Below, piece by piece: positions 4,374 through 56,224 of a DNA stretch of 64,000 nucleotides. The notes under the pieces were generated by a model. That model did not search any database, was not told where the DNA came from, and worked only from the letters and a program-made list of their open reading frames with translations. The translations under genes and the position numbers were made by a program. Each line of letters begins with the position of its first letter. Position 1 is the first letter of the stretch. The stretch comes from a virus (taxonomy: Duplodnaviria; Caudoviricetes): positions 32,001 to 96,000 of the IMG/VR virus record IMGVR_UViG_3300012953_000012, one strand, 5' to 3'.

Positions 4374-4415
4374 AATACCGCCTCTATCTCCGTGATCCTG
4401 TGAAGAGAGCGGAGA
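4374..4415 (+). promoter_or_regulatory. Class III motif (AATAC-CGCCT-CTATC) followed by TCTCCG/CGGAGA hairpin covering the SD of the next gene
   Basis: Variant of RRTAG-N5-CTAT; arms 4387-4392 and 4410-4415; GGAG 4411-4414; ATG 4423. Confidence 0.55.
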
Positions 4416-4422
4416 CTTTCAC

Positions 4423-5274
4423 ATGGCCTGGGTAGAACAGTATTGGTGGAAGTTCCGCCACCGGGTATCGACCCTATGGGGGCGCTGCATAGAGGTCGTG
4501 ATTACCTTTTTCAACTTCATCCGCACGGACAAGGTAGGGCTCGTCGCCCCTACGATTCTGTTTATGGCCATCAGCCATGGATTCTTCTGGTCCACAGTCG
4601 TATTCCTCAATGACTGGACGACCTCGTGGTACGACGAGCGGCACCCGTCTCTCACCACGTCGGTCAGCGTGTGCATCGAAAGTCTCCCCAACGGTGTCTG
4701 TGCCAGGCTCGTGGAGCACCTGACTCTGGTCCAGAGCCGGGCACACCACCACTACGAGATCAGCCGGACCTTCCAGTCCTACCAGTTCGGGTTCCTGAGC
4801 ACATCCTTTTGGGCGGGCACCCTGCTGGCTCTGGGCATCTTCACGGTGGTTCGCAAGGGTTTCGATGACCTCGGATCATGGGGCAAGGGAATGCTGATGG
4901 GTTTGCTATGTGCGGCGGCTTTCTTTGGCGGCTTCCCGGCGCTCGTGAGCATCGACGACAACATCAAGGACAACCTCGACGGCTACAACGCTTACGACGG
5001 CATCGCCGCCGAGATCAGGACGTACATGCGGACGGGTGAGAGCGTCACCGGCAACCATGTGGACGGGGCCTCGTTCCTCCACAAGATCGACATGATGATC
5101 TCGGACCTCGATGCCCCCCGGATCCAACTCGACGCGACCCAGATGGACCTCGGCAAGAGCAGATTTCTGGAGTTGAGCCAGGAGATGGAGAGTGGGGTCA
5201 CGGCCCCCGATGCTCCAACGCCTCGCGTTATCCCGCCTATACCTTCTGAAGGGGTGGACGAGAGCACCCCATGA
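4423..5274 (+). CDS. Multi-pass membrane protein (about 3 TM segments)
   Basis: Hydrophobic stretches GLVAPTILFMAISHGFFWSTVVFL, FWAGTLLALGIFTVV, GMLMGLLCAAAFFGGFPALV; SD GGAG. Confidence 0.7.
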   Translation: MAWVEQYWWKFRHRVSTLWGRCIEVVITFFNFIRTDKVGLVAPTILFMAISHGFFWSTVVFLNDWTTSWYDERHPSLTTSVSVCIESLPNGVCARLVEHLTLVQSRAHHHYEISRTFQSYQFGFLSTSFWAGTLLALGIFTVVRKGFDDLGSWGKGMLMGLLCAAAFFGGFPALVSIDDNIKDNLDGYNAYDGIAAEIRTYMRTGESVTGNHVDGASFLHKIDMMISDLDAPRIQLDATQMDLGKSRFLELSQEMESGVTAPDAPTPRVIPPIPSEGVDESTP

Positions 5275-5405
5275 ACAACGTGATCCCATTCCCGACACCC
5301 GAGACTGTCCTCACCGACGAGGACGTGCGCTGGGTGCTGGGTGACCACACACCACAGGCCGAGATCACCGCCGGGGACTCGGAAGCCTTCTGGAGTCAAA
5401 CATGA
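5271..5405 (+). CDS. Small hypothetical protein, 44 aa (MNNVIPFPTPETV...)
   Basis: ATGA overlaps with both neighbours; read manually. Confidence 0.6.
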   Translation: MNNVIPFPTPETVLTDEDVRWVLGDHTPQAEITAGDSEAFWSQT

Positions 5406-6352
5406 ACAGCACTTCTACACTTCGACGCATCATGCGCTCCGAGGGCCTGATCAAGACCGCTGGCAGCGGTGCCAGCAACGAGGCGTACCTCGACTCCATC
5501 AGCAGCCGGATGAAGGACAAGATCCTCAAGGGCATCGCCAATCACTACGGCGTCTCGACCCAGAGGATGTACAAGGAACTGATCGACCCGGACGCCGAGG
5601 CTCTGTACGAGTACATCACCGATGGCTCCCGGATGCAGGTGTACCGCGACATGAAGTCGGGACGGTTCGCCAGCACCCGCAAGGTTGCTCACCGTCCGCA
5701 CTTCGTGACCCCGAAGGAACTCCGCAACGGCCATGCGTTCATGACCTACAAGATCGACGCCGGGAAGAACAACAGCAAGTTTTACGAAGGCAAGATCACA
5801 CCAGCCGATGACGGCACCTGGTCCTACCTGAAGCGTTGGGGTGCCTTGACGGATGCTGGTGCCAACCACCCACGAGTGGATGGTGAGAAGTACGACAAGC
5901 ACGGACTCACTGAGTCCCAGGCACAGCAGATGCTCGACAAGGAGAAGAAGAAGCGCCTCGGACCCCGTGGCTACTCCGACGCCATGAAGTCACGACCGCT
6001 GGGTCAGTACCCTGTGGGCCTCCAGCGCGACGTGGGCTTTGGGTGGGGCAAGCAGGAGATCACCAACTGCGTCCCGGCGCTGCGGAACATGTCGGACCTG
6101 ATCGTCACCGCCCTGGCAGAAGTCCAGCAGGATGATCCTGGCGACCTTCTCCGTGCCCTTGAGAGCCTTGCCGTACTCGTAGGGGACCTCCCCAGGAGCA
6201 GCATGGCGAAGGAGATCGCGAAGAAGATGCGGCCTCCCGTCCAGCGCATGAAGAAGAACCCCCGCTTCATCGACGACCCCAACCGCACGACGAAGGAGTT
6301 GATGACCCTCAAGCGGTACATCGACCGCCAGACCAAGGAGTGCAACGTCTGA
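5402..6352 (+). CDS. WGR-domain-containing protein
   Basis: NNSKFYEGKI...YLKRWGAL...AQQMLDKEKKKRLGPRGYS matches the WGR pattern. Confidence 0.65.
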   Translation: MNSTSTLRRIMRSEGLIKTAGSGASNEAYLDSISSRMKDKILKGIANHYGVSTQRMYKELIDPDAEALYEYITDGSRMQVYRDMKSGRFASTRKVAHRPHFVTPKELRNGHAFMTYKIDAGKNNSKFYEGKITPADDGTWSYLKRWGALTDAGANHPRVDGEKYDKHGLTESQAQQMLDKEKKKRLGPRGYSDAMKSRPLGQYPVGLQRDVGFGWGKQEITNCVPALRNMSDLIVTALAEVQQDDPGDLLRALESLAVLVGDLPRSSMAKEIAKKMRPPVQRMKKNPRFIDDPNRTTKELMTLKRYIDRQTKECNV

Positions 6353-6368
6353 TTTCTCGGCCACCGAG

Positions 6369-6418
6369 ACGACGAAAACGCGCCCCCGCCGACCCGAAGG
6401 TCAGTGGGGGCGCGTTCG
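6369..6418 (-). terminator. Intrinsic terminator, conserved family copy T1
   Basis: AACGCGCCCCC (6377-87) pairs with GGGGGCGCGTT (6406-16); minus-strand GACC-TTCG-GGTC tetraloop followed by TTTT; lies between convergent genes. Confidence 0.8.
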
Positions 6419-6421
6419 CGT

Positions 6422-6577: not shown

Positions 6578-6594
6578 GTCTCTCCGGGTTGGGG

Positions 6595-6795: not shown

Positions 6796-6824
6796 GGGGG
6801 CCTCCTGTGATGGGGTTGAAGGGA

Positions 6825-7394: not shown

Positions 7395-7445
7395 GTGTGT
7401 CCTTTGGCCCTGTAGGGCACTGGGGGTGGGTGAGGGTCGCTGCCC

Positions 7446-7481
7446 TCACCTACTTACGGAAGCAGGGGGAAGTTTTAACGG
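7446..7481 (-). promoter_or_regulatory. Class I promoter-like repeat P1 (leftward)
   Basis: CCGTTAAAA-CTTCCCC-CTGCTTCCGTAAGTAGGTGA on minus strand. Confidence 0.85.
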
Positions 7482-7501
7482 CGACCCCCGAAAAAAATCC
7501 C

Positions 7502-7537
7502 CCGTTAAAACCGTCTGCTGCTTCCGTAAGTAGGTGA
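7502..7537 (+). promoter_or_regulatory. Class I promoter-like repeat P2 (rightward)
   Basis: CCGTTAAAA-CCGTCTG-CTGCTTCCGTAAGTAGGTGA; A-tract 7491-7497 upstream. Confidence 0.85.
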
Positions 7538-7589
7538 GGACCCGCACCTTCGCGCCCTCAAACCCCCAGAGCCCCATAGGAGGCTGACC

Positions 7590-7988
7590 ATGACCATCGT
7601 ATCGTTCGACTTCGACGACACGCTGGCCTGGACGCGAGTGATCCGAGACGCTGACGGCGACATCGAGGACACCGTCCCTGCTGGCGTCAACCCTCACATC
7701 ATGCCGCTGCTCCATGCAGCCCTCGACCGTGGCGACGAGGTTCACATCGTCACGACCCGCCACGCCTCTCGCTGGCGCGACATCACCCTGGCCGAACTTC
7801 GTGCCTGGGGTGTGCTCGACCGCCTTGCAGGCGTTCACTTCACCGATGGTGAGTGGAAGGCGGAAACTTTGTCCACGCTTCGGGTAGAGGTACATCACGA
7901 TGACGACCAGGATGAACTGGATCGTCTGCCGCCCGGATGCAGTGGTGTCCTGGCACCTCTACACCCGTCCTGGGGAGGTGTGCGATGA
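7590..7988 (+). CDS. HAD-superfamily phosphatase
   Basis: N-terminal VSFDFDDTL (DxD), IVTTR, K and HHDDD motifs; SD GGAGG. Confidence 0.8.
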   Translation: MTIVSFDFDDTLAWTRVIRDADGDIEDTVPAGVNPHIMPLLHAALDRGDEVHIVTTRHASRWRDITLAELRAWGVLDRLAGVHFTDGEWKAETLSTLRVEVHHDDDQDELDRLPPGCSGVLAPLHPSWGGVR

Positions 7989-8665
7989 CTGAGGAAGAGG
8001 CCAAAGCCAGACTGCTCCCCCCTGTGCAGAAGGGTGCTTTGGTGGTGGTCGTCCGTGGCCGCAAGGTGCCACGCGGCACTATGGGCGTGGTGAGGTGGGA
8101 AGGTGACGGTGACTACGGCCCCCGTGTGGGCCTCGCTGTCGAAGGCGAGGACAAACTCGTCTACACCGCCTACAAGAACGTCGATGCTGTGTACCCTGGC
8201 CTGATGCCTGGCCAGGATCCCGAGGGCGGTTGGGTCGAACTCTACGAGCGTGTGCAGCGGGAGCAACGGCTTCCGATGAAAGGGCACCGAATCGAGCACC
8301 GAGGCTCAGGCATGAAAGGCAAGGTCTTCTGGGCGCAGGGGAGCCGTATCGGCTTCAAGTCCGACAAGGGGGTCACCAACTGGTCCGACGCCCACGAGGT
8401 CTGGATGTTGTCGGGACCCATGGAGTGCCGTTTGGATTACGTCACCGAGGTTCCCGCCGTGCCTGCATTACGGGTCCTCCTTGAAGTAGACGCCCGGTCG
8501 CTTCCGGCCCCTTTCAATGAGATCCAGTACCTGGACCCCCTTCCCCAGGGCGGCTACCGAGGTTTGAATGGTCGCCAAGAGTACGTCGCCACGTTGCCTG
8601 AGGAGGTGGCCCAGCAACACCTTCCGGTTGTGGGCCACCTCCAGGATTCCGGGCGTCCTCGGTAG
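7985..8665 (+). CDS. Hypothetical protein with SH3/KOW-like repeats
   Basis: KGALVVVVRGRKVPRGTMGVVRW and GMKGKVFW patterns; ATGA overlap. Confidence 0.65.
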   Translation: MTEEEAKARLLPPVQKGALVVVVRGRKVPRGTMGVVRWEGDGDYGPRVGLAVEGEDKLVYTAYKNVDAVYPGLMPGQDPEGGWVELYERVQREQRLPMKGHRIEHRGSGMKGKVFWAQGSRIGFKSDKGVTNWSDAHEVWMLSGPMECRLDYVTEVPAVPALRVLLEVDARSLPAPFNEIQYLDPLPQGGYRGLNGRQEYVATLPEEVAQQHLPVVGHLQDSGRPR

Positions 8666-8695
8666 CCCGCCTATCGCCCCTCCACAGTCGGAGGC
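8661..8695 (+). promoter_or_regulatory. Class III motif (GGTAG-CCCGC-CTATC) plus SD-covering hairpin CCTCC/GGAGG
   Basis: Motif 8661-8675; arms 8679-8683 and 8690-8694; ATG 8700. Confidence 0.7.
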
Positions 8696-8699
8696 TTTC

Positions 8700-8843
8700 A
8701 TGGGCTGTGGCTGTCGCAAGAAGAACGGGGCGAAAAACCCAACGGCAATCAAGAAATCTGCTCCCCAGATTCGGGTTGCCCGTGCGATCCCTCGTGAGCC
8801 TGTGACGAAGCGACTCCCCCGAGGGACGCGGGTGCGCCGATGA
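8700..8843 (+). CDS. Small basic protein, 47 aa, starting MGCGCRKK
   Basis: GGAGG SD; first gene after a class III motif. Confidence 0.65.
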   Translation: MGCGCRKKNGAKNPTAIKKSAPQIRVARAIPREPVTKRLPRGTRVRR

Positions 8844-20558: not shown

Positions 20559-20723
20559 ATGCACCACATCTCCATCCACGACCTGAAAGGCGATGAGCGC
20601 CGCCGCTGGGCAGAGGCCCGCAAGGCCGCCTATCGCAAGGTATTGCGGGATCGGGGGGCGTCTGACCAGCAGCGCAGGGAAGCCCGAGCCAAGTTGAACG
20701 CCATCGACCGCCCTTCCCGGTAG
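20559..20723 (+). CDS. Small basic helical protein, 54 aa (MHHISIHDLKGDERRRW...)
   Basis: Fills the gap between structural genes; read manually. Confidence 0.55.
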   Translation: MHHISIHDLKGDERRRWAEARKAAYRKVLRDRGASDQQRREARAKLNAIDRPSR

Positions 20724-20733
20724 TCCGGCTATC
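20719..20733 (+). promoter_or_regulatory. Class III motif (GGTAG-TCCGG-CTATC)
   Basis: Exact spacing match; 58 nt upstream of the 1785-aa structural gene. Confidence 0.7.
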
Positions 20734-26723: not shown

Positions 26724-27512
26724 ATGACTACACTTCAGCCCTACCGTAGAACTCTCGTCACCAAGGACACCTATGACGCCATGCGTCGGGTGGAGTTGGC
26801 TGCGAAGGAGTACGGCAGCATCCAGGTCGAGTACGACGGGGTGTCTGCCGAGCACGCCTCCTGGGATGGGGTCAAGCAAGACCCTGGCCCTCTGGACCTG
26901 CCTCCTCACTTGTCCATGCGGCCCACGGGCCGTGAGGTCTACTTGAGCCTGGCGGGCCTGGATGATCCCATGCAGCGCCTGGCTGTGCTCTGGAGCATCG
27001 TGGTGCCTCTGGGGTTCATGCCCTGGGACCGCTACCCGGTGCCCTCGGACACGAGCCATGTGTTCCACTACGCCGGGCCATGGTCCACGGTCGCTGATTT
27101 CTTGCACGGGGAGGGGCGTGGTGATCTCGCGTGGCCGTCCATGTGCTGCGCGGCACAGATCGAGGTCGGCAGGTGGGGCGGCAACCACACTACGGAACGC
27201 ACCATCCAGACGCACATGCACCGGCTGGGCATCCACTGTGGGCCTGTGGACGGCAACATTGGCCCGGTCACCATCTCAGCGATGAAGGCCCTCGGCCTCA
27301 GCGGCCTGGAGAGCCTGAAGGCTGCGGAGGCCCTGGTGAACATGAGCACCCCGCCTGTGCGCCCACAAGCACGCCAACAGGGTCATGTCGTCCTCGGTGG
27401 TGTGTCTATGCAAGCCTTCACATCAGGAGGCGTCCACACGGTGGAAACCCGCAACGGCTACGCTCTGACAGTAGACGGGCCGGGACGCTTGATTCTGACT
27501 GTAGGTGAGTGA
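26724..27512 (+). CDS. Peptidoglycan-binding-domain protein with degenerate M15 peptidase-like N-terminus (endolysin-like)
   Basis: IQTHMHRLGIHCGPVDGNIGPVTISAM fits PG_binding_1; SMRPTGREV and SHVFHY lie where M15 SxHxxGxAxD and ExWH motifs would be. Confidence 0.55.
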   Translation: MTTLQPYRRTLVTKDTYDAMRRVELAAKEYGSIQVEYDGVSAEHASWDGVKQDPGPLDLPPHLSMRPTGREVYLSLAGLDDPMQRLAVLWSIVVPLGFMPWDRYPVPSDTSHVFHYAGPWSTVADFLHGEGRGDLAWPSMCCAAQIEVGRWGGNHTTERTIQTHMHRLGIHCGPVDGNIGPVTISAMKALGLSGLESLKAAEALVNMSTPPVRPQARQQGHVVLGGVSMQAFTSGGVHTVETRNGYALTVDGPGRLILTVGE

Positions 27513-37661: not shown

Positions 37662-37664
37662 CGC

Positions 37665-37679
37665 GGTAGTCCTACTATA
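37665..37679 (+). promoter_or_regulatory. Class III motif (GGTAG-TCCTA-CTATA)
   Basis: Exact spacing match in an intergenic gap; TAG here is not a stop codon. Confidence 0.65.
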
Positions 37680-37730: not shown

Positions 37731-38063
37731 ATGCCCCGCATCTACACAAAGGTCATCCCAGTGAGGACCGTGGTCGATGTAGTGAAGCGCGACCCGCAGT
37801 GGTCGAACGCTGAGGACGCCCCCACGATCTCAATCAAGGTCAAGGTGACCTTTGAGACAGTCTTCACGGAGCACAAAGAAGCCCTGTGGTTGGAGGGTGA
37901 TGTGCAGGTGTGGCCCGACCGTGGGGTGGACATCCTCGCACTGGAGCCGCAGTACGGCACCGTCATCGGCCCCCGCGTGGCTACGGTCCTGGACATTTAT
38001 GAGGACGCGCTTCGACAGGCGTTCAAGGACACCAATCTGAACATCCTGGGGGTGGCACCGTGA
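37731..38063 (+). CDS. Hypothetical protein
   Basis: Preceded by 9-codon ORF 37702..37731 with TGATG overlap. Confidence 0.65.
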   Translation: MPRIYTKVIPVRTVVDVVKRDPQWSNAEDAPTISIKVKVTFETVFTEHKEALWLEGDVQVWPDRGVDILALEPQYGTVIGPRVATVLDIYEDALRQAFKDTNLNILGVAP

Positions 38064-39142
38064 GCACAAGGAAGCGCCTGACCCGACAAGCCGCCTCCCT
38101 CTCGCTCGGCGGGCGGGATCTGCCCCTGGAAGCAGACCTGAAAGCGGATGTGGCCTACGACCATGAGTTGGTCGGCAAGGACGTTGAGGTCTCCAGCATC
38201 GCTGGGGGAACCTTGCACCCTTACAGGGACAGGAAGGCTGTGATCCAGGGGGTCATCACTCGCTTCGGTGAGATCGTCGGATACCAGGTCACTGTGGGCG
38301 GGAAAGTGCATCATGGTCCCGCCAAGGACTTCTATGTGGACCGTTCGGTGGTGGAGGGCGTCCAGCCGCCGACCGCAACCTCAGTTGCCCTTCGTGAAGG
38401 GTTGTCGCACTGGGGTCAGCAACGCACCTACTGGCACACGCAAGCCGCCGGGCTGGAGTCGATGGCTTTCGCCGTGGCTTCCGTGACCCCACAGGCGGTG
38501 GCCCAACATTACGAGTGGGGTTGGGACTTCGCTGTTCCTGATCTCATGCCGGGGGGCTGCACAACAGTCCGGTGCCCGGCGTTCCAGCACAACGACTTCT
38601 GGACTGTGACCACATCGGTCTTCCCTCTCCGTGGGGGCCTGCAACCCAAAGCCCCGCTGATCGAAGACCACTGGCAGCGCACCTTCATGTGGACATTAGC
38701 CATCGCGGACGGCATGTCGAACCTCGACACCGACCCCTGGCCCTGGAAGAGGGCTGTGGCCAGCATCAAGGCCCGAATGTTGGCCACGGAGCAGGTGCTG
38801 GTGCCCTTGTTGAACGAGTGCTTGAACGAGTGCCTGGAAGCCCGGCGAGAAATCTCAGGGTCAGCGCCCGACCTCGTGCCGGGATCAGTCTCGGTGGGCT
38901 TCTCGTCGGTGCGCCTGAAACCCAACACCATCGGCCTGACGGAACCGCCGACAGATCGCCGTCCCTACACGGTGATCTCCATCGCCCCCCAGGCTGCCAG
39001 GTCACGCCACTACTTGCGGCAGGTGGTCTTGCACGAGTGCATCCACATCGCTGTAAACAACGGAAGCGGGGAGAAGCCTCACAACGACCTGTTTGACGCT
39101 ATTGCGGAGCGTGTGGGGTTGGAGCCAAAGCACAGGGACTAA
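38060..39142 (+). CDS. Protein with C-terminal SprT-like zinc metalloprotease domain
   Basis: VVLHECIHIAV...KPHNDLF (HExxH plus downstream His). Confidence 0.75.
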   Translation: MSTRKRLTRQAASLSLGGRDLPLEADLKADVAYDHELVGKDVEVSSIAGGTLHPYRDRKAVIQGVITRFGEIVGYQVTVGGKVHHGPAKDFYVDRSVVEGVQPPTATSVALREGLSHWGQQRTYWHTQAAGLESMAFAVASVTPQAVAQHYEWGWDFAVPDLMPGGCTTVRCPAFQHNDFWTVTTSVFPLRGGLQPKAPLIEDHWQRTFMWTLAIADGMSNLDTDPWPWKRAVASIKARMLATEQVLVPLLNECLNECLEARREISGSAPDLVPGSVSVGFSSVRLKPNTIGLTEPPTDRRPYTVISIAPQAARSRHYLRQVVLHECIHIAVNNGSGEKPHNDLFDAIAERVGLEPKHRD

Positions 39143-44692: not shown

Positions 44693-44727
44693 CACCTACT
44701 TACGGAAGCAGCACCCCCTTTTAACGG
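44693..44727 (-). promoter_or_regulatory. Class I promoter-like repeat P3 (leftward, unpaired)
   Basis: CCGTTAAAA-GGGGGTG-CTGCTTCCGTAAGTAGGTG. Confidence 0.85.
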
Positions 44728-45138: not shown

Positions 45139-45537
45139 TCAGTCCTCCTCGGCGGGTTCGGGTGAGGCGGCAGGTGCAGCGGGGAGCGGGCAAGACAAGG
45201 GAGCGATTTCTGGCGGTTGCTCAGACGGCTCTGCCTCGATCATCCCAGCGTTCCACAGGCTCATGGACTTGTGCCACTCATGGCGAGCCTCGATGGTCAG
45301 CACGAAGTCCGCAGCCTTCTCGCACTCGGGGTCAGAGAACTGGGGTCCCTCGGCATCCGACTCGCAGGAGCAGTGCTCTTCGATGAAGGTCCGAAGGTAC
45401 TTGGCCTGCTGGGTAGCCCAGTTGTCGTACTGGTCGAGTTCGGCCTGATAGACACGGGCGTCCCGCAGGACGGTCTTGTGGGCGCACCCGGCTGTCAGAC
45501 TGACAGCGACGAGAAGCGCGGTGATTTCTGCTTTCAT
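45139..45537 (-). CDS. Lipoprotein (possible spanin-like lysis component)
   Basis: MKAEITALLVAVSLTAG-C lipobox; Cys pairs; Pro-rich tail. Confidence 0.7.
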   Translation of the reverse strand: MKAEITALLVAVSLTAGCAHKTVLRDARVYQAELDQYDNWATQQAKYLRTFIEEHCSCESDAEGPQFSDPECEKAADFVLTIEARHEWHKSMSLWNAGMIEAEPSEQPPEIAPLSCPLPAAPAASPEPAEED

Positions 45538-45541
45538 GGCG

Positions 45542-45611
45542 ATTCGCCTCCAACGATGGTTCACCGGACTATACCGGCGACACATCGTTGGAGGCGAATA
45601 GAGGGGCTACC
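45542..45611 (-). promoter_or_regulatory. Class III motif (GGTAG-CCCCT-CTATT) plus 17-bp hairpin covering the SD of the lipoprotein gene
   Basis: Motif 45611-45597; arms 45583-45599 and 45542-45558 perfectly complementary; GGAGG 45551-45547. Confidence 0.8.
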
Positions 45612-45918
45612 ACCAGTGGTGGTCAGGGTGGGAATCCAACTCGGCAACGTAGGCGGCCACGGCGGCAGCATCCCGAGCAGCCTCGATGGCTCCCACAGCC
45701 CGCTCCAGGGCAGCGTAGCGAGCGGGGTGCTCCAGGATCATGTCGGGGTCGAGGTCGATGCCGAAGGCGTCCTTGAGGGACACCGTTTCAATCTCGGCCT
45801 CTTCGCCGGGTTGGTCCCAGGTCGCAGCGCAACCAGGGGAGTAGGTCAGGGAGCCGGTCACGATGCCCATTCCGGGCAGGGTCACAGCGTCTTCGGTGGT
45901 CAGGGTCACAGTAGGCAT
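45607..45918 (-). CDS. Hypothetical protein (MPTVTLTTEDAV...)
   Basis: GGAG SD before ATG 45918. Confidence 0.65.
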   Translation of the reverse strand: MPTVTLTTEDAVTLPGMGIVTGSLTYSPGCAATWDQPGEEAEIETVSLKDAFGIDLDPDMILEHPARYAALERAVGAIEAARDAAAVAAYVAELDSHPDHHWW

Positions 45919-46479: not shown

Positions 46480-46514
46480 CATCTACTTACGGAAGCAGAC
46501 GAGAGTTTTAACGA
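46480..46514 (-). promoter_or_regulatory. Class I promoter-like repeat P4 (leftward)
   Basis: TCGTTAAAA-CTCTCGT-CTGCTTCCGTAAGTAGATG; A-tract 46525-46531. Confidence 0.85.
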
Positions 46515-46600
46515 GAAGGAGGCCAAAAAAAGATTCGGGTGCCTGTGAATGCCCATGGTCCCTCGGTTTTCGGGAGGTAGGGAAAAAACTCGGAGGGTGG

Positions 46601-46636
46601 CCGTTAAAAGTGCCTCCTGCTTCCGTAAGTACATGA
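46601..46636 (+). promoter_or_regulatory. Class I promoter-like repeat P5 (rightward)
   Basis: CCGTTAAAA-GTGCCTC-CTGCTTCCGTAAGTACATGA; A-tract about 46583-46588. Confidence 0.85.
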
Positions 46637-48352: not shown

Positions 48353-48624
48353 TGTCTGCTGTTCAACCCCTCGTGGCTGTAGCCACGATCCCCGTCCCGA
48401 CCGGCTGGCGGTTCGTCCTGGAGGACGACATGCCCAGCATCGAGCGTGACGTGGGAGACTTCACCCTCACCGTTGGTTTGGACGACGGCAAGTGGCGCTG
48501 GTGGCTCTGCCCCCGTGGCCACAGCGGTGCCGTCCCAAGCCCCGGCAGCGGTGCGGACATGGTGGACGCCATCTGGCAGGTCTTCGACGCCCTCGCCCGC
48601 CGCCTTGATGGAGGTGGAGCATGA
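48349..48624 (+). CDS. Hypothetical protein
   Basis: GGAGG SD, GTGA overlap. Confidence 0.6.
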   Translation: MMSAVQPLVAVATIPVPTGWRFVLEDDMPSIERDVGDFTLTVGLDDGKWRWWLCPRGHSGAVPSPGSGADMVDAIWQVFDALARRLDGGGA

Positions 48625-48839
48625 CCCGCTGTGACCGCTGCCCGAAGCCCCTCGGCGTCCATCGGGTGTCGTGGTTCAACCTCGACACCATCTGCACTCG
48701 CTGTCAGGCCCAGGAAGAAGCCCACCCCGACTACGCCTATGCCCGCGATGTAGAACGCAAGCGGGTACAGGTTGGTGACTACAACTTCGTTGGAGTCGGC
48801 TGGCCTGGAGTCAACGGCAGGGTGCTCCGCACCCGGTAG
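48621..48839 (+). CDS. Conserved small phage zinc-binding protein (CDRC...FNLDTICTRC...GDYNF.G.G)
   Basis: Recognisable phage family pattern. Confidence 0.65.
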   Translation: MTRCDRCPKPLGVHRVSWFNLDTICTRCQAQEEAHPDYAYARDVERKRVQVGDYNFVGVGWPGVNGRVLRTR

Positions 48840-48872
48840 ACGGGCTATCGCCTCCGACTGTTCGGAGGCGAT
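48835..48872 (+). promoter_or_regulatory. Class III motif (GGTAG-ACGGG-CTATC) plus 11-bp hairpin covering the SD
   Basis: ATCGCCTCCGA-CTGT-TCGGAGGCGAT (48847-48872); GGAGG 48864-48868. Confidence 0.8.
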
Positions 48873-48876
48873 GCTC

Positions 48877-50046
48877 GTGAGCCGTGAGATCCAGATAGGA
48901 CACCCGTGCCCGCACCTCATCATTGAGGAGGTGGTCGCGTTAGGGGCGGATAAGAAATCACTGTCCACCCGTGCGCCTGTGTCATCAGCCAACAGCGTCA
49001 GGATCCTGGTCAACAATCAGGTCTATGTGCCGCCTGGGGGCCTCTACTCCAAAGCCATTCTTTCGGGAAGCGTGGGTCCTTACCGCATTGAGAAATGCGT
49101 GGGGTTCGCAGGACCGGAAGGCAACACTCTCACCGTGACGGCCTCGCAAGGGACTGTGACCGTTGACCTCCCCCTGTCGCAACGCCTCAGCGTGGATCGG
49201 CTGGTCCGCGCCTTGAAGTTGACGCCTCTGGATGGTCTGGTTGGGATCACCAGCGTCAACGGCTCGGTGACGTTCACGGACAACCACGCCACAGGCTCGG
49301 AGTCCGTGGTCAAGGTCAGCGGCGACGGTGCCGATTCTTTGGGTTTCGTTCAACGGGGGGCTCGCGGGCGAGAAATCTATCCGGGGTGGACCCTGGTTTC
49401 GCGACCGGACGTGCTTCCGAGTGCTGATCTGCGCGGGCTGTTCCCTGTTCCTGCCCGGTATCCTCGCTTCAAGAAGCCGGTTCCCAACGGGTCGGACTTC
49501 AAGGTCACCTACACCGCGATGCCCGAGAGGTGTCCCCGGTGCCAGGCCACCTACATCGAGAACGACTACCGCTTCAACCAGATGGGCGAGGTACGGACCA
49601 TCATCAACGAAGACCTCCTCTATCAGGCGTGCTTGAAAGCGATCCTGACGAGGAAGGGGTCGAACCCGTACCACACAGGCTATGGATCCTCCATCATGAC
49701 CCGTGTCGGGCGCAAGCGGATGGCAGCAGCCGCTGGAGCCATCCGGCAGGACATTATCCAGGCACTCCGAGGGGTCCAGGGCATTCAAGGAGGTCAGCGG
49801 AAGTTCCAGCAGGTGACTGACCGAGAGAGGCTGTACCGCGTCGAGGATGTGTCCGTGACCCCCACGGATGATCCCACGGTCGTGCGTGTCGGTGTGGTCG
49901 TCGTCAACGGCAGCAACCAACCTGTATCGCTGAACATCGTCTACTCGGCTCCGGGGGCGATAGCCCTCGCTGGGTCCAACGGTCAGTCCCTCGGGGTCTC
50001 GGGTCTGTCGCAATCCCAAACACGACGCTTCCTGATGGACGGGTAG
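48877..50046 (+). CDS. Baseplate wedge protein with C-terminal gp25/W-like domain
   Basis: LYQACLKAILTRKGSNPYHTGYGSSI...IIQAL...RVEDVSV...VVRVGVVV is gp25-like; precedes baseplate J. Confidence 0.75.
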   Translation: MSREIQIGHPCPHLIIEEVVALGADKKSLSTRAPVSSANSVRILVNNQVYVPPGGLYSKAILSGSVGPYRIEKCVGFAGPEGNTLTVTASQGTVTVDLPLSQRLSVDRLVRALKLTPLDGLVGITSVNGSVTFTDNHATGSESVVKVSGDGADSLGFVQRGARGREIYPGWTLVSRPDVLPSADLRGLFPVPARYPRFKKPVPNGSDFKVTYTAMPERCPRCQATYIENDYRFNQMGEVRTIINEDLLYQACLKAILTRKGSNPYHTGYGSSIMTRVGRKRMAAAAGAIRQDIIQALRGVQGIQGGQRKFQQVTDRERLYRVEDVSVTPTDDPTVVRVGVVVVNGSNQPVSLNIVYSAPGAIALAGSNGQSLGVSGLSQSQTRRFLMDG

Positions 50047-50055: not shown

Positions 50056-53000
50056 ATGTCAGACACATTGATCTACAGCCCGGACGGCAAACTCACGCAA
50101 ACGGTCAACTTCAGCACCACGCGGCAGACCCGATTCTTTGAGGGGGTCCTCCCTCAGGACGCTGCGGAAGTGCTGGTCTCCATCAACGGGAGTGGGTTTT
50201 CCAGTGATGAGAGCCTGGTCCAGTGGGGGGACGGGGTGTGGACCATCCCCAGCCCGCTCTATGAGCCGGACGGGTTGGTCCTCCTGGAGGGAGTCAACAC
50301 GGTCGAGATCAAAGCCATCCTCGGCAACGGCTCCGCGACCCCGACAGCCAGCGCGACGGTTCGCCTCACCACTGACCAGGATGTGCTCCTGACCGTGGGG
50401 TCACCGACCAACATTTCCATGACGCAGGAGAACGACACCGTCACCGTGCGGGCCGAAGCCCCTGAGACAGCAGACGGGTTCCAGGGCATGAACTACTACG
50501 CCTCGGCAAACGCCGGGGGAGGGGTCAGCGGCTACACCCGGATCAACGTGTCGCTGGTGGCCGATGGCCTCGCCCGGCAGGAGGTCCAGCAGTTTGCCGC
50601 ACAAGCGGTGGACCTCCCCGTGCAAGTGGATGCTGACGGCAACCCGACAGCCGATCCGATGTACTACCGCCTCACAGGCCGACAGGAGGACGAAGACGAA
50701 GGGGTGCTCGTCACCGACTACAATGAGCGGTACGAGGTCCCTGAGACAGCCCGGACCATCCGCTTGAACATGACCTTGGACCAGGTGCGGGACGTGGTCT
50801 CCTACGACTTCACCCACAACCGCTCAGGCTCCCCGCAGTCCACCCCGGCGACCGTCCGGGTGAGTGAGTTTGTCAACCTGAGCCCCTCTTCGCCCCTCTA
50901 CTACGTCGTCACAGCAGTCTTCTACGACCGGGTGACGGACACTGAGTACGAGTCGGCATACTCAGCCGAGGTTGTAGGCCAGCCTATGCAGGTGACGACG
51001 GCCATCGGATCGATCCCAACGGTCTCTCGTCAGAACATCGTCACGCAGTTCGTCAGGGCCATCTTCCGATCCAACCCTCAGATCAAGGTCGAGGCCGGGT
51101 CAGTGCTCCGGGACACGGTGATCGATCCGTACTCCTCCGAGAGTGAGCGGCTGCGGTTCCTGCTGGATTTCTACCAGCGTGCGAGAACCCCGACACTACT
51201 CCTCCAGATCGATGACCCCACCGCCAGTGGGACCAGCATCCCTGTGGCACAGTCCTCCTACAAGCAAGCACTCCAGTCGGCGCTGTACCTGGACAATGCC
51301 CTCGCCACACAAGGGCTGATTGACTCGGCCTTTGAGTCGTATGCCAGCAACTTCGGCCTTCAGCGGAAGTCCGGGATCGGTGCGCGTGGTGAGGTGCTGT
51401 TTTTCACCCGCACCAAACCACAGTCCTCCCTCGTGATCCCGTTGGGGACGATTGTGTCTGGCGGGGGTTCCAACTTCGCCACCTCAAGGGCCGCATCCAT
51501 CTCGTCGGCCCAGATCGCTTCCTACTACAACCCGGTCAACGGCTACTATCAGATCTCAGTGCCGGTCCAGGCCACGACAACAGGGTCGAACACCAACGTC
51601 GGCACCGGCCAGATCACGAGCGTGATCTCCACCCTCGGTGTCTCCCTGTCCGTCACCAACCTGGCAGCGATGATTGGGGGGCGGGATGGGGAGTCGAACC
51701 TCTCATTGACGGCGCGAGTCCAGAACCGCCTGGCCTCTGTGGACTCGGGAACGGAGCGTGGGTACTTGCAGACAGCAGCGGACGTTCCGGGCGTGGTCAA
51801 GGCCAATGTCGTGGCAGCGGGCAACCCCCTCATGCAGCGCGATCTCAATGCAGACGGGCAACACATGGGCGGCAAGGTGGACATCTGGGTGCAAGGCACC
51901 AATCTGGCATCGTTGACTGACAACTTCGCCTTCACCTTTGAGATCGCCCAGGACATCCAGTTTCAGATCCTCAGTGTGCCGGACCTGACGTTCCGGGCGT
52001 TGGACCCTGACCTGTCATCGGCTGACCCCATCGTTGAGATGCTGGATGACCCGGACATCGGGTATGAGATGAGAAACGCATCCACGGGCGAGGTCTTTGA
52101 TCTCGCTGGGGTCAAGGTGCTTTCCTATGACACCATCCAGTTGGACACCTCGGTCTCTCAGCCAGCCGTGGACCTCACCGACGTGGTCCTGGCCTCGTAC
52201 CGGCGGCGAACAGGAAGTAAGTTTGTCCTCCTGCGGCAGCCTGCTGAGGAGATCGTCTCTGTCGTGGGGTCGGTCAGCGGGACTCTCCCTACTGATTCCT
52301 ATCTCCTGAACCACCCCGATGCCCCCCTCGCTTACGGGCGCTCCACCCTGGCCGAGGACTCCCTTCAGATCGACGGTTACAGGGACGCGAATGGCAACAC
52401 CATTCCCAGCGGGGACAGCATCACGGTGACGGACGAGCCTCATGTCATGGTCGGCCAGTACGCTGAGTTCCTGGACAGCCTGGGGGCCAACTACTTGACC
52501 ATCGTGGTCAAGAGCGCGGACGGACTCATCACCTACAACGGACCCAACGACCCTTCCGGTGCGCCGGACTACCAGGTGACCCTGGGGACGCAGACCGTAG
52601 CAGTGAGCATCACCCGGACAGACGCGAGCACGATCCCCAACGGGGCTTCCGTGCTGGTCTCCTACGAGCACGACGAGAACTTCACCGTCACCTACACTAC
52701 GAATCTCATTGTCTCCACCACCCAGAACGCGGTTGACTTGCAGAAGCACGCGACCGCTGATGTAGTGGTGAAGGACGCCATCCCGGCCCCTCTCGACATT
52801 GAGGCAACGGTGGTCGTGCGGCAGGGGCGTGAGACCTCAAAGGTGGACGCGGACCTGCGAACCAACATGGCCACCTTCTTCACCAATCTGCGCCTGGGTG
52901 ATCCCGTCCGGCAGTCGGACATCATCGACGTCATCGAGCAGACCAGTGGAGTCTCGTATGTGGTGGTCCCCCTGAACCTGTTGGCCCGCTCGACTGGAAG

Positions 53001-53517
53001 CACAGTCGTTCGGGAAGACATTTCCACGGACACCGTGTCGGAGAGCGTCCTGCTGACGTCCCTCTCGTCCAACCAAAGCATCGTCTACATCCTCACTGAG
53101 AACCTCTCAGCGGCTACCGTCAACGGTGGTGGGGGAGCCGGTGAGTTCCGGGCCGTCTTCCAGGACGAGGTCGAGATGAACCTGCTTCCGGCAGCCGCCA
53201 CACTGGTGACACTGGGCACGGAACCCGGCTCATCCTACATCGTCGGAAGTGATGGTGTGGTGATCGAAGGGTACTCGGATGACGAGACCTTGAAGACGCA
53301 AGGCTACGTTACGGACAAGGCCATCACCCAGCAGCGCAGGGCACTGACCGCGAACCGGGTGTTGGTATCTGTCACCCCTGGTGATGCTCCCACAGAGCAC
53401 CAGTACGCTACCACCTATGTGGTGGGGGAGGGCGCTGGAGCCAGGAACGTCGAGCCTGGTGGTGCGGAGTACTGCACCGAAGGCTTCCTCACATTCACCT
53501 ACGACGAGGATCGGTGA
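50056..53517 (+). CDS. Baseplate J-like (gp6/gp47-type) protein with N-terminal Ig/Fn-like extension
   Basis: GSVLRDTVIDP, ARGEVLFF, VIPLGTIV, VPVQATTTGSNTNVGTGQI, GGRDGESNLSLTARV...SGTERGY. Confidence 0.88.
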   Translation: MSDTLIYSPDGKLTQTVNFSTTRQTRFFEGVLPQDAAEVLVSINGSGFSSDESLVQWGDGVWTIPSPLYEPDGLVLLEGVNTVEIKAILGNGSATPTASATVRLTTDQDVLLTVGSPTNISMTQENDTVTVRAEAPETADGFQGMNYYASANAGGGVSGYTRINVSLVADGLARQEVQQFAAQAVDLPVQVDADGNPTADPMYYRLTGRQEDEDEGVLVTDYNERYEVPETARTIRLNMTLDQVRDVVSYDFTHNRSGSPQSTPATVRVSEFVNLSPSSPLYYVVTAVFYDRVTDTEYESAYSAEVVGQPMQVTTAIGSIPTVSRQNIVTQFVRAIFRSNPQIKVEAGSVLRDTVIDPYSSESERLRFLLDFYQRARTPTLLLQIDDPTASGTSIPVAQSSYKQALQSALYLDNALATQGLIDSAFESYASNFGLQRKSGIGARGEVLFFTRTKPQSSLVIPLGTIVSGGGSNFATSRAASISSAQIASYYNPVNGYYQISVPVQATTTGSNTNVGTGQITSVISTLGVSLSVTNLAAMIGGRDGESNLSLTARVQNRLASVDSGTERGYLQTAADVPGVVKANVVAAGNPLMQRDLNADGQHMGGKVDIWVQGTNLASLTDNFAFTFEIAQDIQFQILSVPDLTFRALDPDLSSADPIVEMLDDPDIGYEMRNASTGEVFDLAGVKVLSYDTIQLDTSVSQPAVDLTDVVLASYRRRTGSKFVLLRQPAEEIVSVVGSVSGTLPTDSYLLNHPDAPLAYGRSTLAEDSLQIDGYRDANGNTIPSGDSITVTDEPHVMVGQYAEFLDSLGANYLTIVVKSADGLITYNGPNDPSGAPDYQVTLGTQTVAVSITRTDASTIPNGASVLVSYEHDENFTVTYTTNLIVSTTQNAVDLQKHATADVVVKDAIPAPLDIEATVVVRQGRETSKVDADLRTNMATFFTNLRLGDPVRQSDIIDVIEQTSGVSYVVVPLNLLARSTGSTVVREDISTDTVSESVLLTSLSSNQSIVYILTENLSAATVNGGGGAGEFRAVFQDEVEMNLLPAAATLVTLGTEPGSSYIVGSDGVVIEGYSDDETLKTQGYVTDKAITQQRRALTANRVLVSVTPGDAPTEHQYATTYVVGEGAGARNVEPGGAEYCTEGFLTFTYDEDR

Positions 53518-54482: not shown

Positions 54483-54843
54483 TCTCTGCCACGCGAGGAT
54501 CATCGACCCCCAGACCCCGGCACCACGACACTCCCTTGTAGGTGTCAGTCGGTGTCCAGTGGCAACGAGCCTCACCACGCTTGCCCTTCTTCAAGGCTCG
54601 CTCTGCTTTGAGGGCTTCGGAGCGGTCAGCGTAGGGTCCGTAGATGGCCTTCAGTTTCCATGGGCGGTGCTTGCTCGTGTAGCGGCCTCCCCCGACGATC
54701 TCCCCGTTGTGCTGCCGTAGGCGGCGCTTCGGGTCGGTGGTCATGCCGACGTAGTGGAACCCTGGCAGGGGTTTGCCTCGCTTGCCAACGCGAACCTGCT
54801 GGCTCTGGATGACGTAGACGAAGTACGGCTTGGGGTCACCCAT
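54427..54843 (-). CDS. GIY-YIG nuclease, SLX1-like
   Basis: YFVYVIQS...HYVGMTTDPKRRLRQHNGEIVGGGRYTSKHRPW...EALKAE. Confidence 0.88.
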   Translation of the reverse strand: MGDPKPYFVYVIQSQQVRVGKRGKPLPGFHYVGMTTDPKRRLRQHNGEIVGGGRYTSKHRPWKLKAIYGPYADRSEALKAERALKKGKRGEARCHWTPTDTYKGVSWCRGLGVDDPRVAEINDAYAVQPPEPPMPFCE

Positions 54844-55198
54844 CGTCCTTCCCTGTTGCTGGTCGAGGCACCGCGCTCTCTACGTCCACGACAGCACGAG
54901 CAGTCTTCGCTGCACGGCCTCGCCTGACAGACGCAGCACGAATCTGAGACCCCACAGGGCCAGCGTCGATCTCACAAGCCACGGAGCAGAAGTGCTGTGG
55001 CTTGACATCGTAGTGGGCGTAAGGCCGACCACAGACGAGACAGTCAGAGGTCGCCATAGCCATCAGTAGACGCAACGCACGACAGCAAGCGTCACAAGGC
55101 CACCCACCACCATCGGAAACACCGTACCGAGACGGGTGAGGAAACCGGGGGTGAACAGGTCTGGGGGGAGGTGGGGGGACATCAGAGGCAGGCTCCAT
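54836..55198 (-). CDS. Cys-rich hypothetical protein
   Basis: CDACC, CLVCG, FCSVAC; start uncertain. Confidence 0.45.
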   Translation of the reverse strand: MEPASDVPPPPPRPVHPRFPHPSRYGVSDGGGWPCDACCRALRLLMAMATSDCLVCGRPYAHYDVKPQHFCSVACEIDAGPVGSQIRAASVRRGRAAKTARAVVDVESAVPRPATGKDDG

Positions 55199-56090
55199 CT
55201 CGCCACACCGCCGCGACCTCACGGATCATGCGGAGCATCCGGGCGACCAATGCAGGGGTCTCGCCAATCTCAGCAGCGATTTCTGACTTCCGGTAGCCGT
55301 TCACCATCAACCTGGTGCAGAGTGCGGCTACGTTGGGGTCATAGTCCCTCACCCATGCTTCGTGTCGGACCCGGTCGGTCAGACGCTGGGTAGCGGAAGC
55401 CATCTCCGAGAAGTCGTGCTGTCCCGCATCCACGGTCGCCAGATCGGCACAGGACACATCCTCCATGACCCCTTCGACATTCAGCACTCCAAACTGCTCG
55501 TTTCGGCTGAGACGGGAGTACCGGCGTCGGTAGTTGCTCACGATGCAACCGCAGACCATGTGGACGTAGTGGCCGAAGGAAGACTTGCTGGGGTCGAACG
55601 GGCACTTGCCGTTGTTTCGTACCAGCAGCCCTTTGTAGATCTCCTGGAGGACATCCTCGGGGTCGTAGCCGTACTTGATCACCCGCCTACCGTAGCCTGC
55701 GTAAAACAACTTGCGGACCTCGTGGCCCCGCTTCGCCAGGTCGATACCAGGTGCTTTGGCGATACTCAGTGCCGGGCTGGTCCTGATCTTTGGGACCGTC
55801 TTCTCGACGGTGATCTGCGGGCCGAACATCGTCAGGGTGTCCAGCGTCAAGGCAGGTTCAGGGCGTCGATGGCCCCCACGGCGGAAGTACCTGTCGAATG
55901 TGATCTTCGGATCACGGTGGTGGGGACCTGGTCGGGGGTCGCGGTTGACCAGTGCCATGATGGTCTTCCGGGCGCTCGGGTAACGGACGGAACCACTCGG
56001 CCACTGCACCAGAAATCCATTGGGGTCAGCCACAACCGGGTGGCCTCCGTGTTCAGTGCGGGCGTAGTAAGTTCCTTCCGTTCTCAGCAT
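55182..56090 (-). CDS. Phage sigma-70/ECF-like RNA polymerase sigma factor with N-terminal extension
   Basis: Region 2-like DPEDVLQEIYKGLL...FDPSKSSFGHYVHMV...NYRRR; region 4-like GYRKSEIAAEIGETPALVARML. Confidence 0.75.
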   Translation of the reverse strand: MLRTEGTYYARTEHGGHPVVADPNGFLVQWPSGSVRYPSARKTIMALVNRDPRPGPHHRDPKITFDRYFRRGGHRRPEPALTLDTLTMFGPQITVEKTVPKIRTSPALSIAKAPGIDLAKRGHEVRKLFYAGYGRRVIKYGYDPEDVLQEIYKGLLVRNNGKCPFDPSKSSFGHYVHMVCGCIVSNYRRRYSRLSRNEQFGVLNVEGVMEDVSCADLATVDAGQHDFSEMASATQRLTDRVRHEAWVRDYDPNVAALCTRLMVNGYRKSEIAAEIGETPALVARMLRMIREVAAVWRDGACL

Positions 56091-56154
56091 TGGCGATCTC
56101 CAGCGATGTCAAAGGGTGGGGCAAAATCACTCAGGGTGGTTGGTTATCCCACAA

Positions 56155-56183
56155 TACCGACACCAAGTGAAGCGTGACCCCCC
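56155..56183 (-). promoter_or_regulatory. Class II promoter-like motif GGGGGG-N18-CGGTA upstream of the sigma gene
   Basis: 21 nt spacing to TA on minus strand. Confidence 0.65.
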
Positions 56184-56209
56184 ACTATCAAGTCTTGACG
56201 GTGGGGTCG

Positions 56210-56224
56210 AATAGTTGCCCTATA
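56210..56224 (+). promoter_or_regulatory. Class III motif (AATAG-TTGCC-CTATA)
   Basis: Perfect ATAG-N5-CTAT palindrome in a divergent intergenic region. Confidence 0.6.

What the first reader, a model, noticed from the sequence alone, without database searches (positions are those of the whole stretch)
4374..56224. Class III motif RRTAS-N5-CTAT marks structural and putative late transcription units
Seen: seven copies with fixed spacing at 4374(+), 8661(+), 20719(+), 37665(+), 45611(-), 48835(+) and 56210(+). They precede tail genes, the baseplate pair, a lipoprotein and other islands. In four copies the TAG is also the stop codon of the upstream gene; in the others it is not, and the N5-CTAT spacing holds either way. 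TAG-N5-CTA is palindromic. Inference: either a late-sigma promoter or the site of a dimeric late activator.
Basis: partly seen in the sequence, partly recalled or inferred. Interest (0 to 1): 0.7.

Follow-up and report, generated by a model that had tools for sequence, protein, structure and literature searches.

The report
Compact giant-phage promoter CGGTAG-N5-CTAT
A 15-base two-part DNA signal (CGGTAG, five free bases, CTAT) sits just upstream of the capsid, baseplate, fibre and many other gene groups of an uncultured marine giant phage and its relatives. It is most likely the phage's own late promoter, but the protein that reads it is not identified.

Summary
All seven copies are at the stated coordinates (0.27 expected by chance). 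In four of them the TAG is the upstream stop codon.

The motif is larger and more widespread than described. The consensus is CGGTAG-N5-CTAT, with about 37 copies in the 205-kb contig. All lie outside coding sequence and point at the next gene. It was the top hit of an unbiased dyad search here and in a relative sharing 56% protein identity.

Orthologous genes keep the motif while the N5 and flanks change (Fisher p 9e-12). It stands before the major capsid gene. It heads 12 outward directions of divergent regions. Nothing is conserved in the 40 bases upstream. The ribosome-binding site never starts closer than about 14 bases after CTAT.

I read it as a self-sufficient, -35-less phage promoter for virion and accessory genes, with transcription starting about 10-12 bases after CTAT. 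The conservation is asymmetric, so a dimeric activator is not supported.

The neighbouring sigma gene has an ECF fold with a variable region 4. That fits the lineage-recoded class I promoters better than this motif.

This scan had already noted the motif in another window of this genome and in another genome.

The parts
8660..8674 (+). Class III copy CGGTAGCCCGCCTAT. Its TAG is the stop codon of gene 7985-8665. It is followed about 25 nt later by a small ORF (8700-8843, begins MGCGC), then the 1196-aa and 1971-aa (beta-helix fibre) genes.
   Evidence: The orthologous site is kept in G2 as CGGTATCCCTTCTAT and in G3 at 60304. Beta-helix domain.
20718..20732 (+). Class III copy CGGTAGTCCGGCTAT. 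Its TAG is the stop codon of 20559-20723. It heads the 1785-aa gene 20791-26148.
   Evidence: The orthologous copies in G1, G2, G3 and G5 have similar distances to the start codon (58, 59, 64, 63 and 62 nt).
37664..37678 (+). Class III copy CGGTAGTCCTACTAT, 1.2 kb after the polA gene. It heads 37731-38063 and the SprT-like gene 38060-39142.
   Evidence: In G1 the N5 is fully replaced (CGGGG) while CGGTAG and CTAT are kept. The orthologues in G3, G4 and G5 also carry a copy.
45598..45612 (-). Class III copy on the minus strand (TGGTAGCCCCTCTAT). Its TAG is the stop codon of 45607-45918(-). It heads 45139-45537(-). A 17-bp hairpin follows that holds the ribosome-binding site.
   Evidence: The copy is identical in G1.
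48834..48848 (+). Class III copy CGGTAGACGGGCTAT. Its TAG is the stop codon of 48621-48839. It heads the gp25-like gene (48871-50046) and baseplate J (50056-53517).
   Evidence: A copy is kept at the same place in 11 of 17 related loci, down to 41% baseplate-J identity. Three more loci carry a CGGTGC variant there. The remaining three (L043, L047, L048) were not resolved.
56209..56223 (+). Variant copy GAATAGTTGCCCTAT in the divergent region between the sigma-like gene and 56330-57577. It points at the latter.
   Evidence: Kept in G1 as TTAGTTGCTCTAT. No CGG.
4374..4387 (+). Weakest listed copy (AATACCGCCTCTAT: TAC, no CGG), upstream of 4423/4498-5274.
   Evidence: Not kept in G2. The gene block behind it is absent at this place in G3. 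A member of that block (5402-6352) has its own copy in G3. Status uncertain.
27395..27409 (+).
   Evidence: The same variant is kept in G1 (CGGTGGTGTGCCTAT). Possible internal promoter.
55182..56090 (-). 302-aa ECF-type sigma-like gene with an added N-terminal beta domain.
   Evidence: TIGR02937 E 8.7e-4 over residues 115-271. Family of 793 proteins, some named sigma-24 by JGI. AlphaFold pLDDT 84.6; the top Foldseek hits are mainly ECF sigmas, E 2e-3 to 3e-2. Region 2 is near invariant and the C-terminus variable.

Best explanation
CGGTAG-N5-CTAT is a self-contained, -35-less promoter specific to this clade of uncultured marine giant phages. It starts the transcription units that hold the virion genes (capsid, head protease, baseplate, fibres, very large structural proteins) and a set of accessory genes, probably late in infection.

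Shown:
- where the motif is;
- its orientation;
- its conservation across relatives;
- its sorting by gene class.

Inferred:
- CTAT works like a -12/-10 element and CGGTAG like a -24 box.
- RNA synthesis starts about 10-12 nt after CTAT, at a G-rich, C-poor stretch (often GGTAGG). Many late mRNAs would then begin almost at their ribosome-binding site.
- The enzyme is probably host core polymerase carrying a phage-made specificity factor. That factor is not identified.
- The fast-evolving 429-aa sigma-like protein with a C-terminal winged helix (genome 188076-189365) is the candidate left by elimination, or a factor encoded on the missing half of the genome.
For: 1. Excess and placement.
- 7 copies in the window against 0.27 expected.
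- Genome-wide, CGGT-N7-CTAT has 29 hits. 27 lie outside coding sequence and each has a co-oriented gene downstream. The reversed control gives 1 hit.

2. Found without prior choice.
- Among all 4-mer-gap-4-mer dyads in upstream regions, GTAG-N5-CTAT ranks first in this genome (20 upstream, 21 in the genome, 0.05 expected).
- CGGT-N7-CTAT ranks first in relative G3 (36 of 45). It also appears in G4 and G5.
- Anchoring on CTAT alone recovers CGGTAG at -11 to -6.

3. Conservation.
- Aligned orthologous sites keep CGGTAG and CTAT while N5 and flanks change.
- In 138 orthologue pairs with G3 (56% amino-acid identity), 18 have the motif in both, 8 in G0 only, 6 in G3 only and 106 in neither (Fisher 9e-12).
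- With G5 the counts are 8/6/0/76 (4e-8). Distances to the start codon are similar.

4. It stands where a promoter is required.
- It heads 12 outward directions in the 17 divergent intergenic regions.
- Back-to-back pairs lie only 10 bp apart in G3 and G5, and 20 bp apart here. That leaves no room for other upstream elements.
- There is no conservation in the 40 nt upstream across 126 sites.
- There are no sigma-70-consensus promoters in 44-58 kb of the window (0 against 1.9 expected).

5. Gene class.
- By nearest upstream motif, class III covers 109 genes (121 kb), including 12 of the 13 genes of 800 aa or more.
- It covers the major capsid protein (phrog_2522, E 2e-54), head protease, gp25-like, baseplate J and the beta-helix fibre.
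- SNF2 helicase, DnaB and PolA lie behind class II.

6. Start-site inference.
- The distance from CTAT to the start codon has a sharp floor at 22 nt and a mode of 24-32 nt (48 of 113).
- The Shine-Dalgarno core begins 14-16 nt after CTAT in 43 of 126 sites.
- Even sites with long leaders have the G-rich stretch at +12 to +18.
Against: - No transcript start has been measured. Timing is inferred from gene content alone.
- No reader has been found. The contig is only about 46% complete by CheckV.
- Only 5 of 37 sites have a terminator-like hairpin upstream, so most would be internal promoters within read-through arrays.
- Some non-structural genes also follow the motif: an endonuclease, a HAD RNA-repair gene and a SprT-like gene.
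- The fixed distance to the ribosome-binding site could also suit an RNA-level operator.
- The start-site register rests on indirect arguments. Ribosome-site-locking hairpins, which would support it, are not more common than in shuffled leaders (21 of 81 against 15.8 +/- 3.1).
Confidence: 0.72

Rival explanations
1. The motif is a promoter, but it is read by a phage-encoded non-canonical RNA polymerase (single-subunit T7-like, or a divergent multisubunit or two-barrel enzyme) and not by host core plus a phage factor.
For: - The motif is compact (15 bp) and self-sufficient, with no -35.
- From my own knowledge, SP6 and K11 promoters contain TAG-N6-CTAT, and marine T7-like phages use promoters of about 15 bp.
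- Many very large ORFs have no family match.
- Half of the genome is missing.
Against: - PF00940 has no match in G0, G2, G3, G4 or G5. The control genomes were also silent, so this is weak evidence.
- No beta-prime-type DFDGD motif occurs in any called protein of G0 or G3.
- Promoters of known single-subunit polymerases are conserved across their whole length. Here N5 is free.
- Two sigma-like proteins are encoded, which suggests the host core is used.
Confidence: 0.13
2. The motif is an operator for a phage DNA-binding regulator. This could be an activator next to weak promoters, or a repressor site of the 'stoperator' kind that blocks elongation. The promoters themselves would lie elsewhere.
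For: - Like mycobacteriophage L5 stoperators (my knowledge), it is an asymmetric element of about 14 bp.
- It has many copies in short intergenic gaps.
- It is always in one orientation relative to transcription and often overlaps stop codons (10 TAG stops).
- TAG/CTA is a short inverted repeat.
Against: - It is absent from the class I and class II units and tracks gene class. Stoperators are spread through all operons.
- It is the only recurrent motif in several divergent regions.
- Back-to-back pairs 10 bp apart leave no room for separate promoters upstream.
- Its information content (about 14 bits from the CTAT-anchored profile, about 19 bits; my sums) matches or exceeds the about 13.4 bits I calculate are needed to specify 37 sites in 2 x 205,564 positions.
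- The palindrome does not extend, and it is broken in conserved variants.
Confidence: 0.1
3. The motif acts in RNA: a processing site or a translational operator in the 5' leader of read-through transcripts, placed at a fixed distance from the ribosome-binding site.
For: - The distance to the Shine-Dalgarno sequence is fixed.
- Most copies lie between co-directional genes with no terminator upstream, so they are probably transcribed by read-through.
Against: - Copies at the heads of divergent units, and the 10-bp back-to-back pairs, would not be transcribed from any visible upstream promoter.
- There is no conserved secondary structure. N5 is free, and the 3-bp TAG/CTA arms cannot form a stable stem.
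- Hairpins downstream are no more frequent than in shuffled leaders.
Confidence: 0.05

Closest known systems
Phage T4 late promoters (TATAAATA, read by gp55 with gp33 and the gp45 clamp)
   Same: - Short promoter with no -35 element.
- Placed before late and virion genes, often inside gene arrays and overlapping the end of the upstream gene.
- In T4, a few downstream genes have ribosome-site hairpins that late transcripts would lack. A similar arrangement is seen here at the baseplate gene and at 45598(-).
   Different: - The sequence is unrelated and two-part (6 + 4 conserved bases split by 5 free ones).
- The upstream box lies about two helical turns from the inferred start.
- No gp55, gp33 or clamp link was identified. 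I had no family accession for gp55, so this was not properly tested.
Bacterial sigma-54 promoters (-24 TGGCAC, N5, -12 TTGC)
   Same: - Same length and spacing: a hexamer with GG at its 2nd and 3rd bases, five free bases, then a tetramer.
- If the last T of CTAT is set to -12, the GG falls at -25/-24 and the G-rich onset at +1.
- No -35 element.
   Different: - The hallmark GC at -13/-12 is AT here.
- No sigma-54 DNA-binding or core-binding domain, and no enhancer-binding AAA+ activator, is encoded in five related contigs.
- The host is unknown.
Phage-encoded sigma cascades on host core (phiEco32 gp36, SPO1 gp28 and gp33/34)
   Same: - A phage-specific promoter class that sorts genes by function.
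- Two sigma-like proteins are encoded on the contig.
   Different: - Those sigmas read -35/-10 or extended -10 promoters.
- Here the only well-supported sigma (302 aa, ECF fold) has a variable region 4. That matches the lineage-recoded -35 of the class I promoters, not this constant motif.
Stoperators of mycobacteriophage L5 and other cluster A phages
   Same: - Asymmetric, about 14 bp.
- Dozens of copies.
- Short intergenic gaps, single orientation, overlap with stop codons.
   Different: - Restricted to one gene class.
- Fixed distance to the ribosome-binding site.
- Stands alone at the heads of divergent units.
Promoters of T7-like single-subunit polymerases (SP6, K11: TAG-N6-CTATAG)
   Same: - Contains TAG and CTAT in the same order.
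- Compact and self-sufficient.
   Different: - Spacing is N5, not N6.
- The middle is not conserved.
- No polymerase gene was found (the control was uninformative).

Membership tests
T4-type late promoter | Single -10-region octamer TATAAATA and nothing else | tested here: not met
   The conserved bases are CGGTAG and CTAT, separated by 5 free bases.
T4-type late promoter | No -35 element | tested here: met
   No information in the 40 nt upstream across 126 sites. Back-to-back pairs lie 10 bp apart.
T4-type late promoter | gp55-like minimal sigma, gp33 co-activator and sliding clamp encoded by the phage | not tested
   I had no family accession for gp55 or gp33, and the contig is about 46% complete.
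Sigma-54 (-24/-12) promoter | GG at -24 and GC at -12, with fixed spacing | tested here: not met
   The GG and the spacing are present, but the -13/-12 bases are AT in all 126 sites. The site definition required CTAT, so this is by construction.
Sigma-54 (-24/-12) promoter | Sigma-54 protein and an AAA+ enhancer-binding activator available | tested here: inconclusive
   PF04552, PF04963 and PF00158 have no match in five related phage contigs, and the controls did respond. A host sigma-54 cannot be excluded because the host is unknown.
Sigma-70 / ECF-type -35/-10 promoter | Two boxes 16-18 bp apart | tested here: not met
   The boxes are 5 bp apart and nothing is conserved further upstream. No sigma-70 consensus sites occur in 44-58 kb.
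T7-like single-subunit polymerase promoter | Phage-encoded PF00940 polymerase | tested here: inconclusive
   No match in five contigs, but the controls also gave none and the genomes are partial.
T7-like single-subunit polymerase promoter | Continuous conservation over about 17-23 bp up to the start site | tested here: not met
   N5 and the bases after CTAT are free.
Stoperator (cluster A mycobacteriophages) | Asymmetric intergenic sites in one orientation relative to transcription | tested here: met
Stoperator (cluster A mycobacteriophages) | Spread through early and late operons alike; bound by the immunity repressor | tested here: not met
   By nearest-upstream-motif assignment, the replication genes and the small-gene islands fall under classes II and I, and no class III site lies between genome 146.7 and 172.6 kb. 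One CDS-internal copy at 59395 lies beside the replication block. No repressor or integrase was looked for.

The most novel reading that the evidence does not exclude
A new kind of promoter recognition in giant phages. A 15-bp two-box element has the geometry of sigma-54 promoters (GG at -24, a second box at -12, start 12 nt later). It would be read by a factor that is not sigma-54 and needs no upstream element. The resulting late mRNAs would begin at their ribosome-binding site. A sigma-like protein with an extra winged helix (the 429-aa protein), or a factor not yet seen, would supply the second DNA contact.
Probability: 0.18. Interest if true: 0.75.

Novelty: new variant of a known kind. 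Interest (0 to 1): 0.52.

Why it matters
Nothing is known experimentally about how the phage-G-related giant phages of the ocean schedule their genes. This motif gives a sequence-only way to split their genomes into a virion/accessory programme and the rest: here 109 genes and 59% of the contig. That helps annotate hundreds of genes that have no family match.

Its constancy across lineages contrasts with the class I promoters, whose -35 box is rewritten from lineage to lineage. That contrast points to two different recognition systems in one phage.

A minimal 15-bp orthogonal promoter could also be useful as a tool.

Tried and rejected
- **Close cultured relatives.** Megablast of 20 kb against the phage collection found nothing.
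- **Annotation of downstream genes.** Pfam and PHROGs on about 60 proteins were mostly blank.
- **Relatives from one protein.** A single-protein search with the gp25-like gene found none. An alignment of baseplate J was needed.
- **Palindrome extension.** Positions 2 and 4 of N5 are complementary in 13 of 28 sites, against about 12 expected from composition (my count). I rejected any symmetry beyond TAG/CTA.
- **Ribosome-site-locking hairpins as general support for the start site.** 21 of 81 against 15.8 +/- 3.1 in shuffled leaders. Not significant. Only a few strong cases stand out: the baseplate gene, with a compensatory change in G1, and 45598(-).
- **Terminators upstream of sites.** 5 of 37. 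My detector was lenient, so this is uninformative.
- **Polymerase and sigma-54 searches.** Sigma-54 domains and activators, T7-like polymerase and a beta-prime catalytic motif were all absent.
- **Distant relatives.**
  - LR745208.1 (485 kb) has an 86%-identical capsid protein but only 62 orthologue pairs at 41% identity. It lacks the CGG box and keeps only a weak T-A-N6-CTAT.
  - Tunturiibacter phage Tunturi_5 and Bacillus phage G show no enrichment. Tunturi_5 has one copy before its capsid operon.
- **A contig with a 45%-identical sigma.** L084 has no copy in 21 kb of early-type genes.
- **The 429-aa protein.** The fold search gave only weak sigma and winged-helix matches (E 0.1 or worse), so its sigma nature stays a lead (Atlas score 0.93).
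- **Literature.** Three searches found no description of the motif.

Full report
**What the window is.** The window is bases 32001-96000 of a 205,564-bp IMG/VR virus record. The record is 62% G+C, linear, and about 46% complete by CheckV. Its major capsid protein is 86% identical to that of a 485-kb uncultured phage. It is 50% identical to Tunturiibacter phage Tunturi_5 and 41% to Bacillus phage G. Few of its proteins match any family.

**The observation.**
- In four, the TAG is the stop codon of the upstream gene.
- The pattern had been loosened after the fact, so I tested it without prior choice. Among all 4-mer-gap-4-mer dyads in upstream regions, GTAG-N5-CTAT ranks first. It occurs 20 times upstream and 21 times in the whole genome, against 0.05 expected.
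- Anchoring on CTAT alone gives 50 upstream occurrences against 7.3 expected, and recovers C-G-G-T-A-G at -11 to -6.
- Genome-wide, CGGT-N7-CTAT has 29 hits. 27 lie outside coding sequence and all point at the next gene. The reversed pattern has 1 hit.
- Taking CGGT-N7-CTAT or TAG-N5-CTAT gives 37 sites.
- The TAC matches inside genes are Tyr-codon noise.
56210 is a conserved variant. 4374 is weak and not conserved.

**Relatives.** I collected relatives through polA and through an alignment of baseplate J.
- G1 (about 80% nucleotide identity) and G2 (about 70%) are syntenic. At aligned orthologous sites, CGGTAG and CTAT persist while N5 and the flanks change. At 37664, for example, N5 is TCCTA here and CGGGG in G1.
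- The copy before the gp25-like baseplate gene is kept in 11 of 17 loci, down to 41% baseplate-J identity. Three more loci carry a CGGTGC variant.
- In G3 (297 kb, 56% mean protein identity), the unbiased search again puts CGGT-N7-CTAT first, at 36 of 45 occurrences. G4 and G5 have it too.
- Orthologous genes share the motif far more often than chance. G0 against G3: 18 both, 8 G0 only, 6 G3 only, 106 neither (Fisher 9e-12). G0 against G5: 8/6/0/76 (4e-8). Distances to the start codon are similar.
- The core shared by all these lineages is the asymmetric CGGT-N7-CTAT, not the TAG/CTA palindrome.
- More distant phages lose it. LR745208.1 keeps only a weak T-A-N6-CTAT. Tunturi_5 and phage G show no enrichment.

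**Why a promoter.**
- There is no conservation in the 40 nt upstream across 126 sites from five genomes.
- The motif heads 12 outward directions in the 17 divergent intergenic regions. The three motif classes together cover 24 of the 34 directions.
- Back-to-back divergent pairs are separated by only 10 bp in G3 and G5, and by 20 bp here. Nothing else can sit upstream of them.
- No sigma-70-consensus site occurs in 14 kb of the window.
- The motif carries about as much information as is needed to pick its sites. I sum about 14-19 bits, against about 13.4 bits needed.

**Gene class.**
- By nearest upstream motif, class III covers 109 genes (121 kb) and 12 of the 13 genes of 800 aa or more.
- These include the major capsid protein (phrog_2522, E 2e-54), head protease, gp25-like, baseplate J, the beta-helix fibre and an orthologue of a Tunturi_5 virion protein.
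- SNF2 helicase, DnaB, PolA and the sigma-like gene lie behind class II. The small-gene islands lie behind class I.

**Where transcription probably starts (inferred).**
- The distance from CTAT to the start codon has a floor at 22 nt and a mode at 24-32 nt.
- The Shine-Dalgarno core begins 14-16 nt after CTAT in 43 of 126 sites, and rarely closer.
- Sites whose start codon is 40 nt or more away still carry a G-rich, C-poor stretch at +12 to +18, often GGTAGG.
- The simplest reading is a start about 10-12 nt after CTAT.
- This puts GG at about -25/-24 and the AT of CTAT at -13/-12, which is the geometry of sigma-54 promoters. The sigma-54 domains and its activators are absent from five contigs.
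- A few genes (the baseplate gene and 45598(-)) have strong hairpins that lock the ribosome-binding site. Their 5' arm lies between CTAT and the inferred start, as at some T4 late genes. As a general feature this is not significant.

**Who reads it (open).**
- The 302-aa neighbour is an ECF-type sigma. Its region 2 is near invariant and its C-terminal region variable.
- The class I promoters are ECF-like, and their -35 differs between G0, G3, G5 and LR745208.1. That sigma therefore fits class I better than this constant motif.
- A second, fast-evolving 429-aa protein looks sigma-like with a C-terminal winged helix, but the evidence is weak.
- No phage polymerase was detected.

**Comparison and novelty.**
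- The motif works like a T4-type late promoter: short, no -35, internal to gene arrays. It is not a member of that family, nor of the sigma-54, ECF or T7-like families.
- I found no paper describing it.
- Earlier notes of this scan describe the same motif in another window of this genome and in another genome.

Noticed in passing
window 8700-8843 (+): A small 47-aa basic ORF beginning MGCGC lies about 25 nt after the class III copy at 8660. The same MGCG start follows the orthologous copies in G2, G3 and G5. My gene caller missed it. It has no signal peptide or lipobox, so 'lipoprotein' is doubtful.
   Followed up: partly
window 7453-7530, 44699-44726, 46486-46629, 62158-62247, 63133-63160 (genome 39453 onward): Class I promoter: 16 near-identical copies of CGTTAAAA-N-CTGCTTCCGTAAGTA, often as divergent pairs. 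Relatives have the same -10 (CCGTA) but a different -35 (G3 GTTCAACT, G5 GGGGTTCC, LR745208.1 CTAAAA).
   Followed up: partly
window 53515 (end of baseplate J); G1 28763(-), G2 52657(+): In G1 and G2 a class III copy overlaps the stop codon of baseplate J. Here the HAD RNA-repair gene follows directly with no copy. In G3 the orthologue of that HAD gene sits elsewhere with its own copy.
   Followed up: no
whole contig: TAG is used as the stop codon in 70 of 219 called genes, which is high for a 62% G+C genome. 10 of these TAGs are part of a class III motif.
   Followed up: partly
LR745208.1 (485 kb uncultured phage): Its major capsid protein is 86% identical to this phage's, yet only 62 reciprocal best hits exist, at a mean of 41% identity. 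Either the capsid gene is unusually constrained or it was exchanged.
   Followed up: no
window 54836-55222 (-): A 128-aa ORF overlaps the end of the sigma-like gene. A gene of about 127 aa follows the sigma homologue in two other contigs (L084, L085). It is a possible sigma partner and has no family match.
   Followed up: partly
class II sites, e.g. window 28165, 29806, 33610, 37044, 56155(-): The -10-like box of class II (CGGGTA/CGGTA), the upstream box of class III (CGGTAG) and the stretch at the inferred class III start (GGTAGG) all share GGTA. I have no explanation.
   Followed up: no
genome 188076-189365 (-), outside the window: A 429-aa sigma-like protein with a Pro/Ala/Glu-rich disordered linker and a C-terminal winged helix. 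It is only 37% and 26% identical to its G3 and G5 orthologues. It is divergent from a gene that carries two tandem class III copies.
   Followed up: partly
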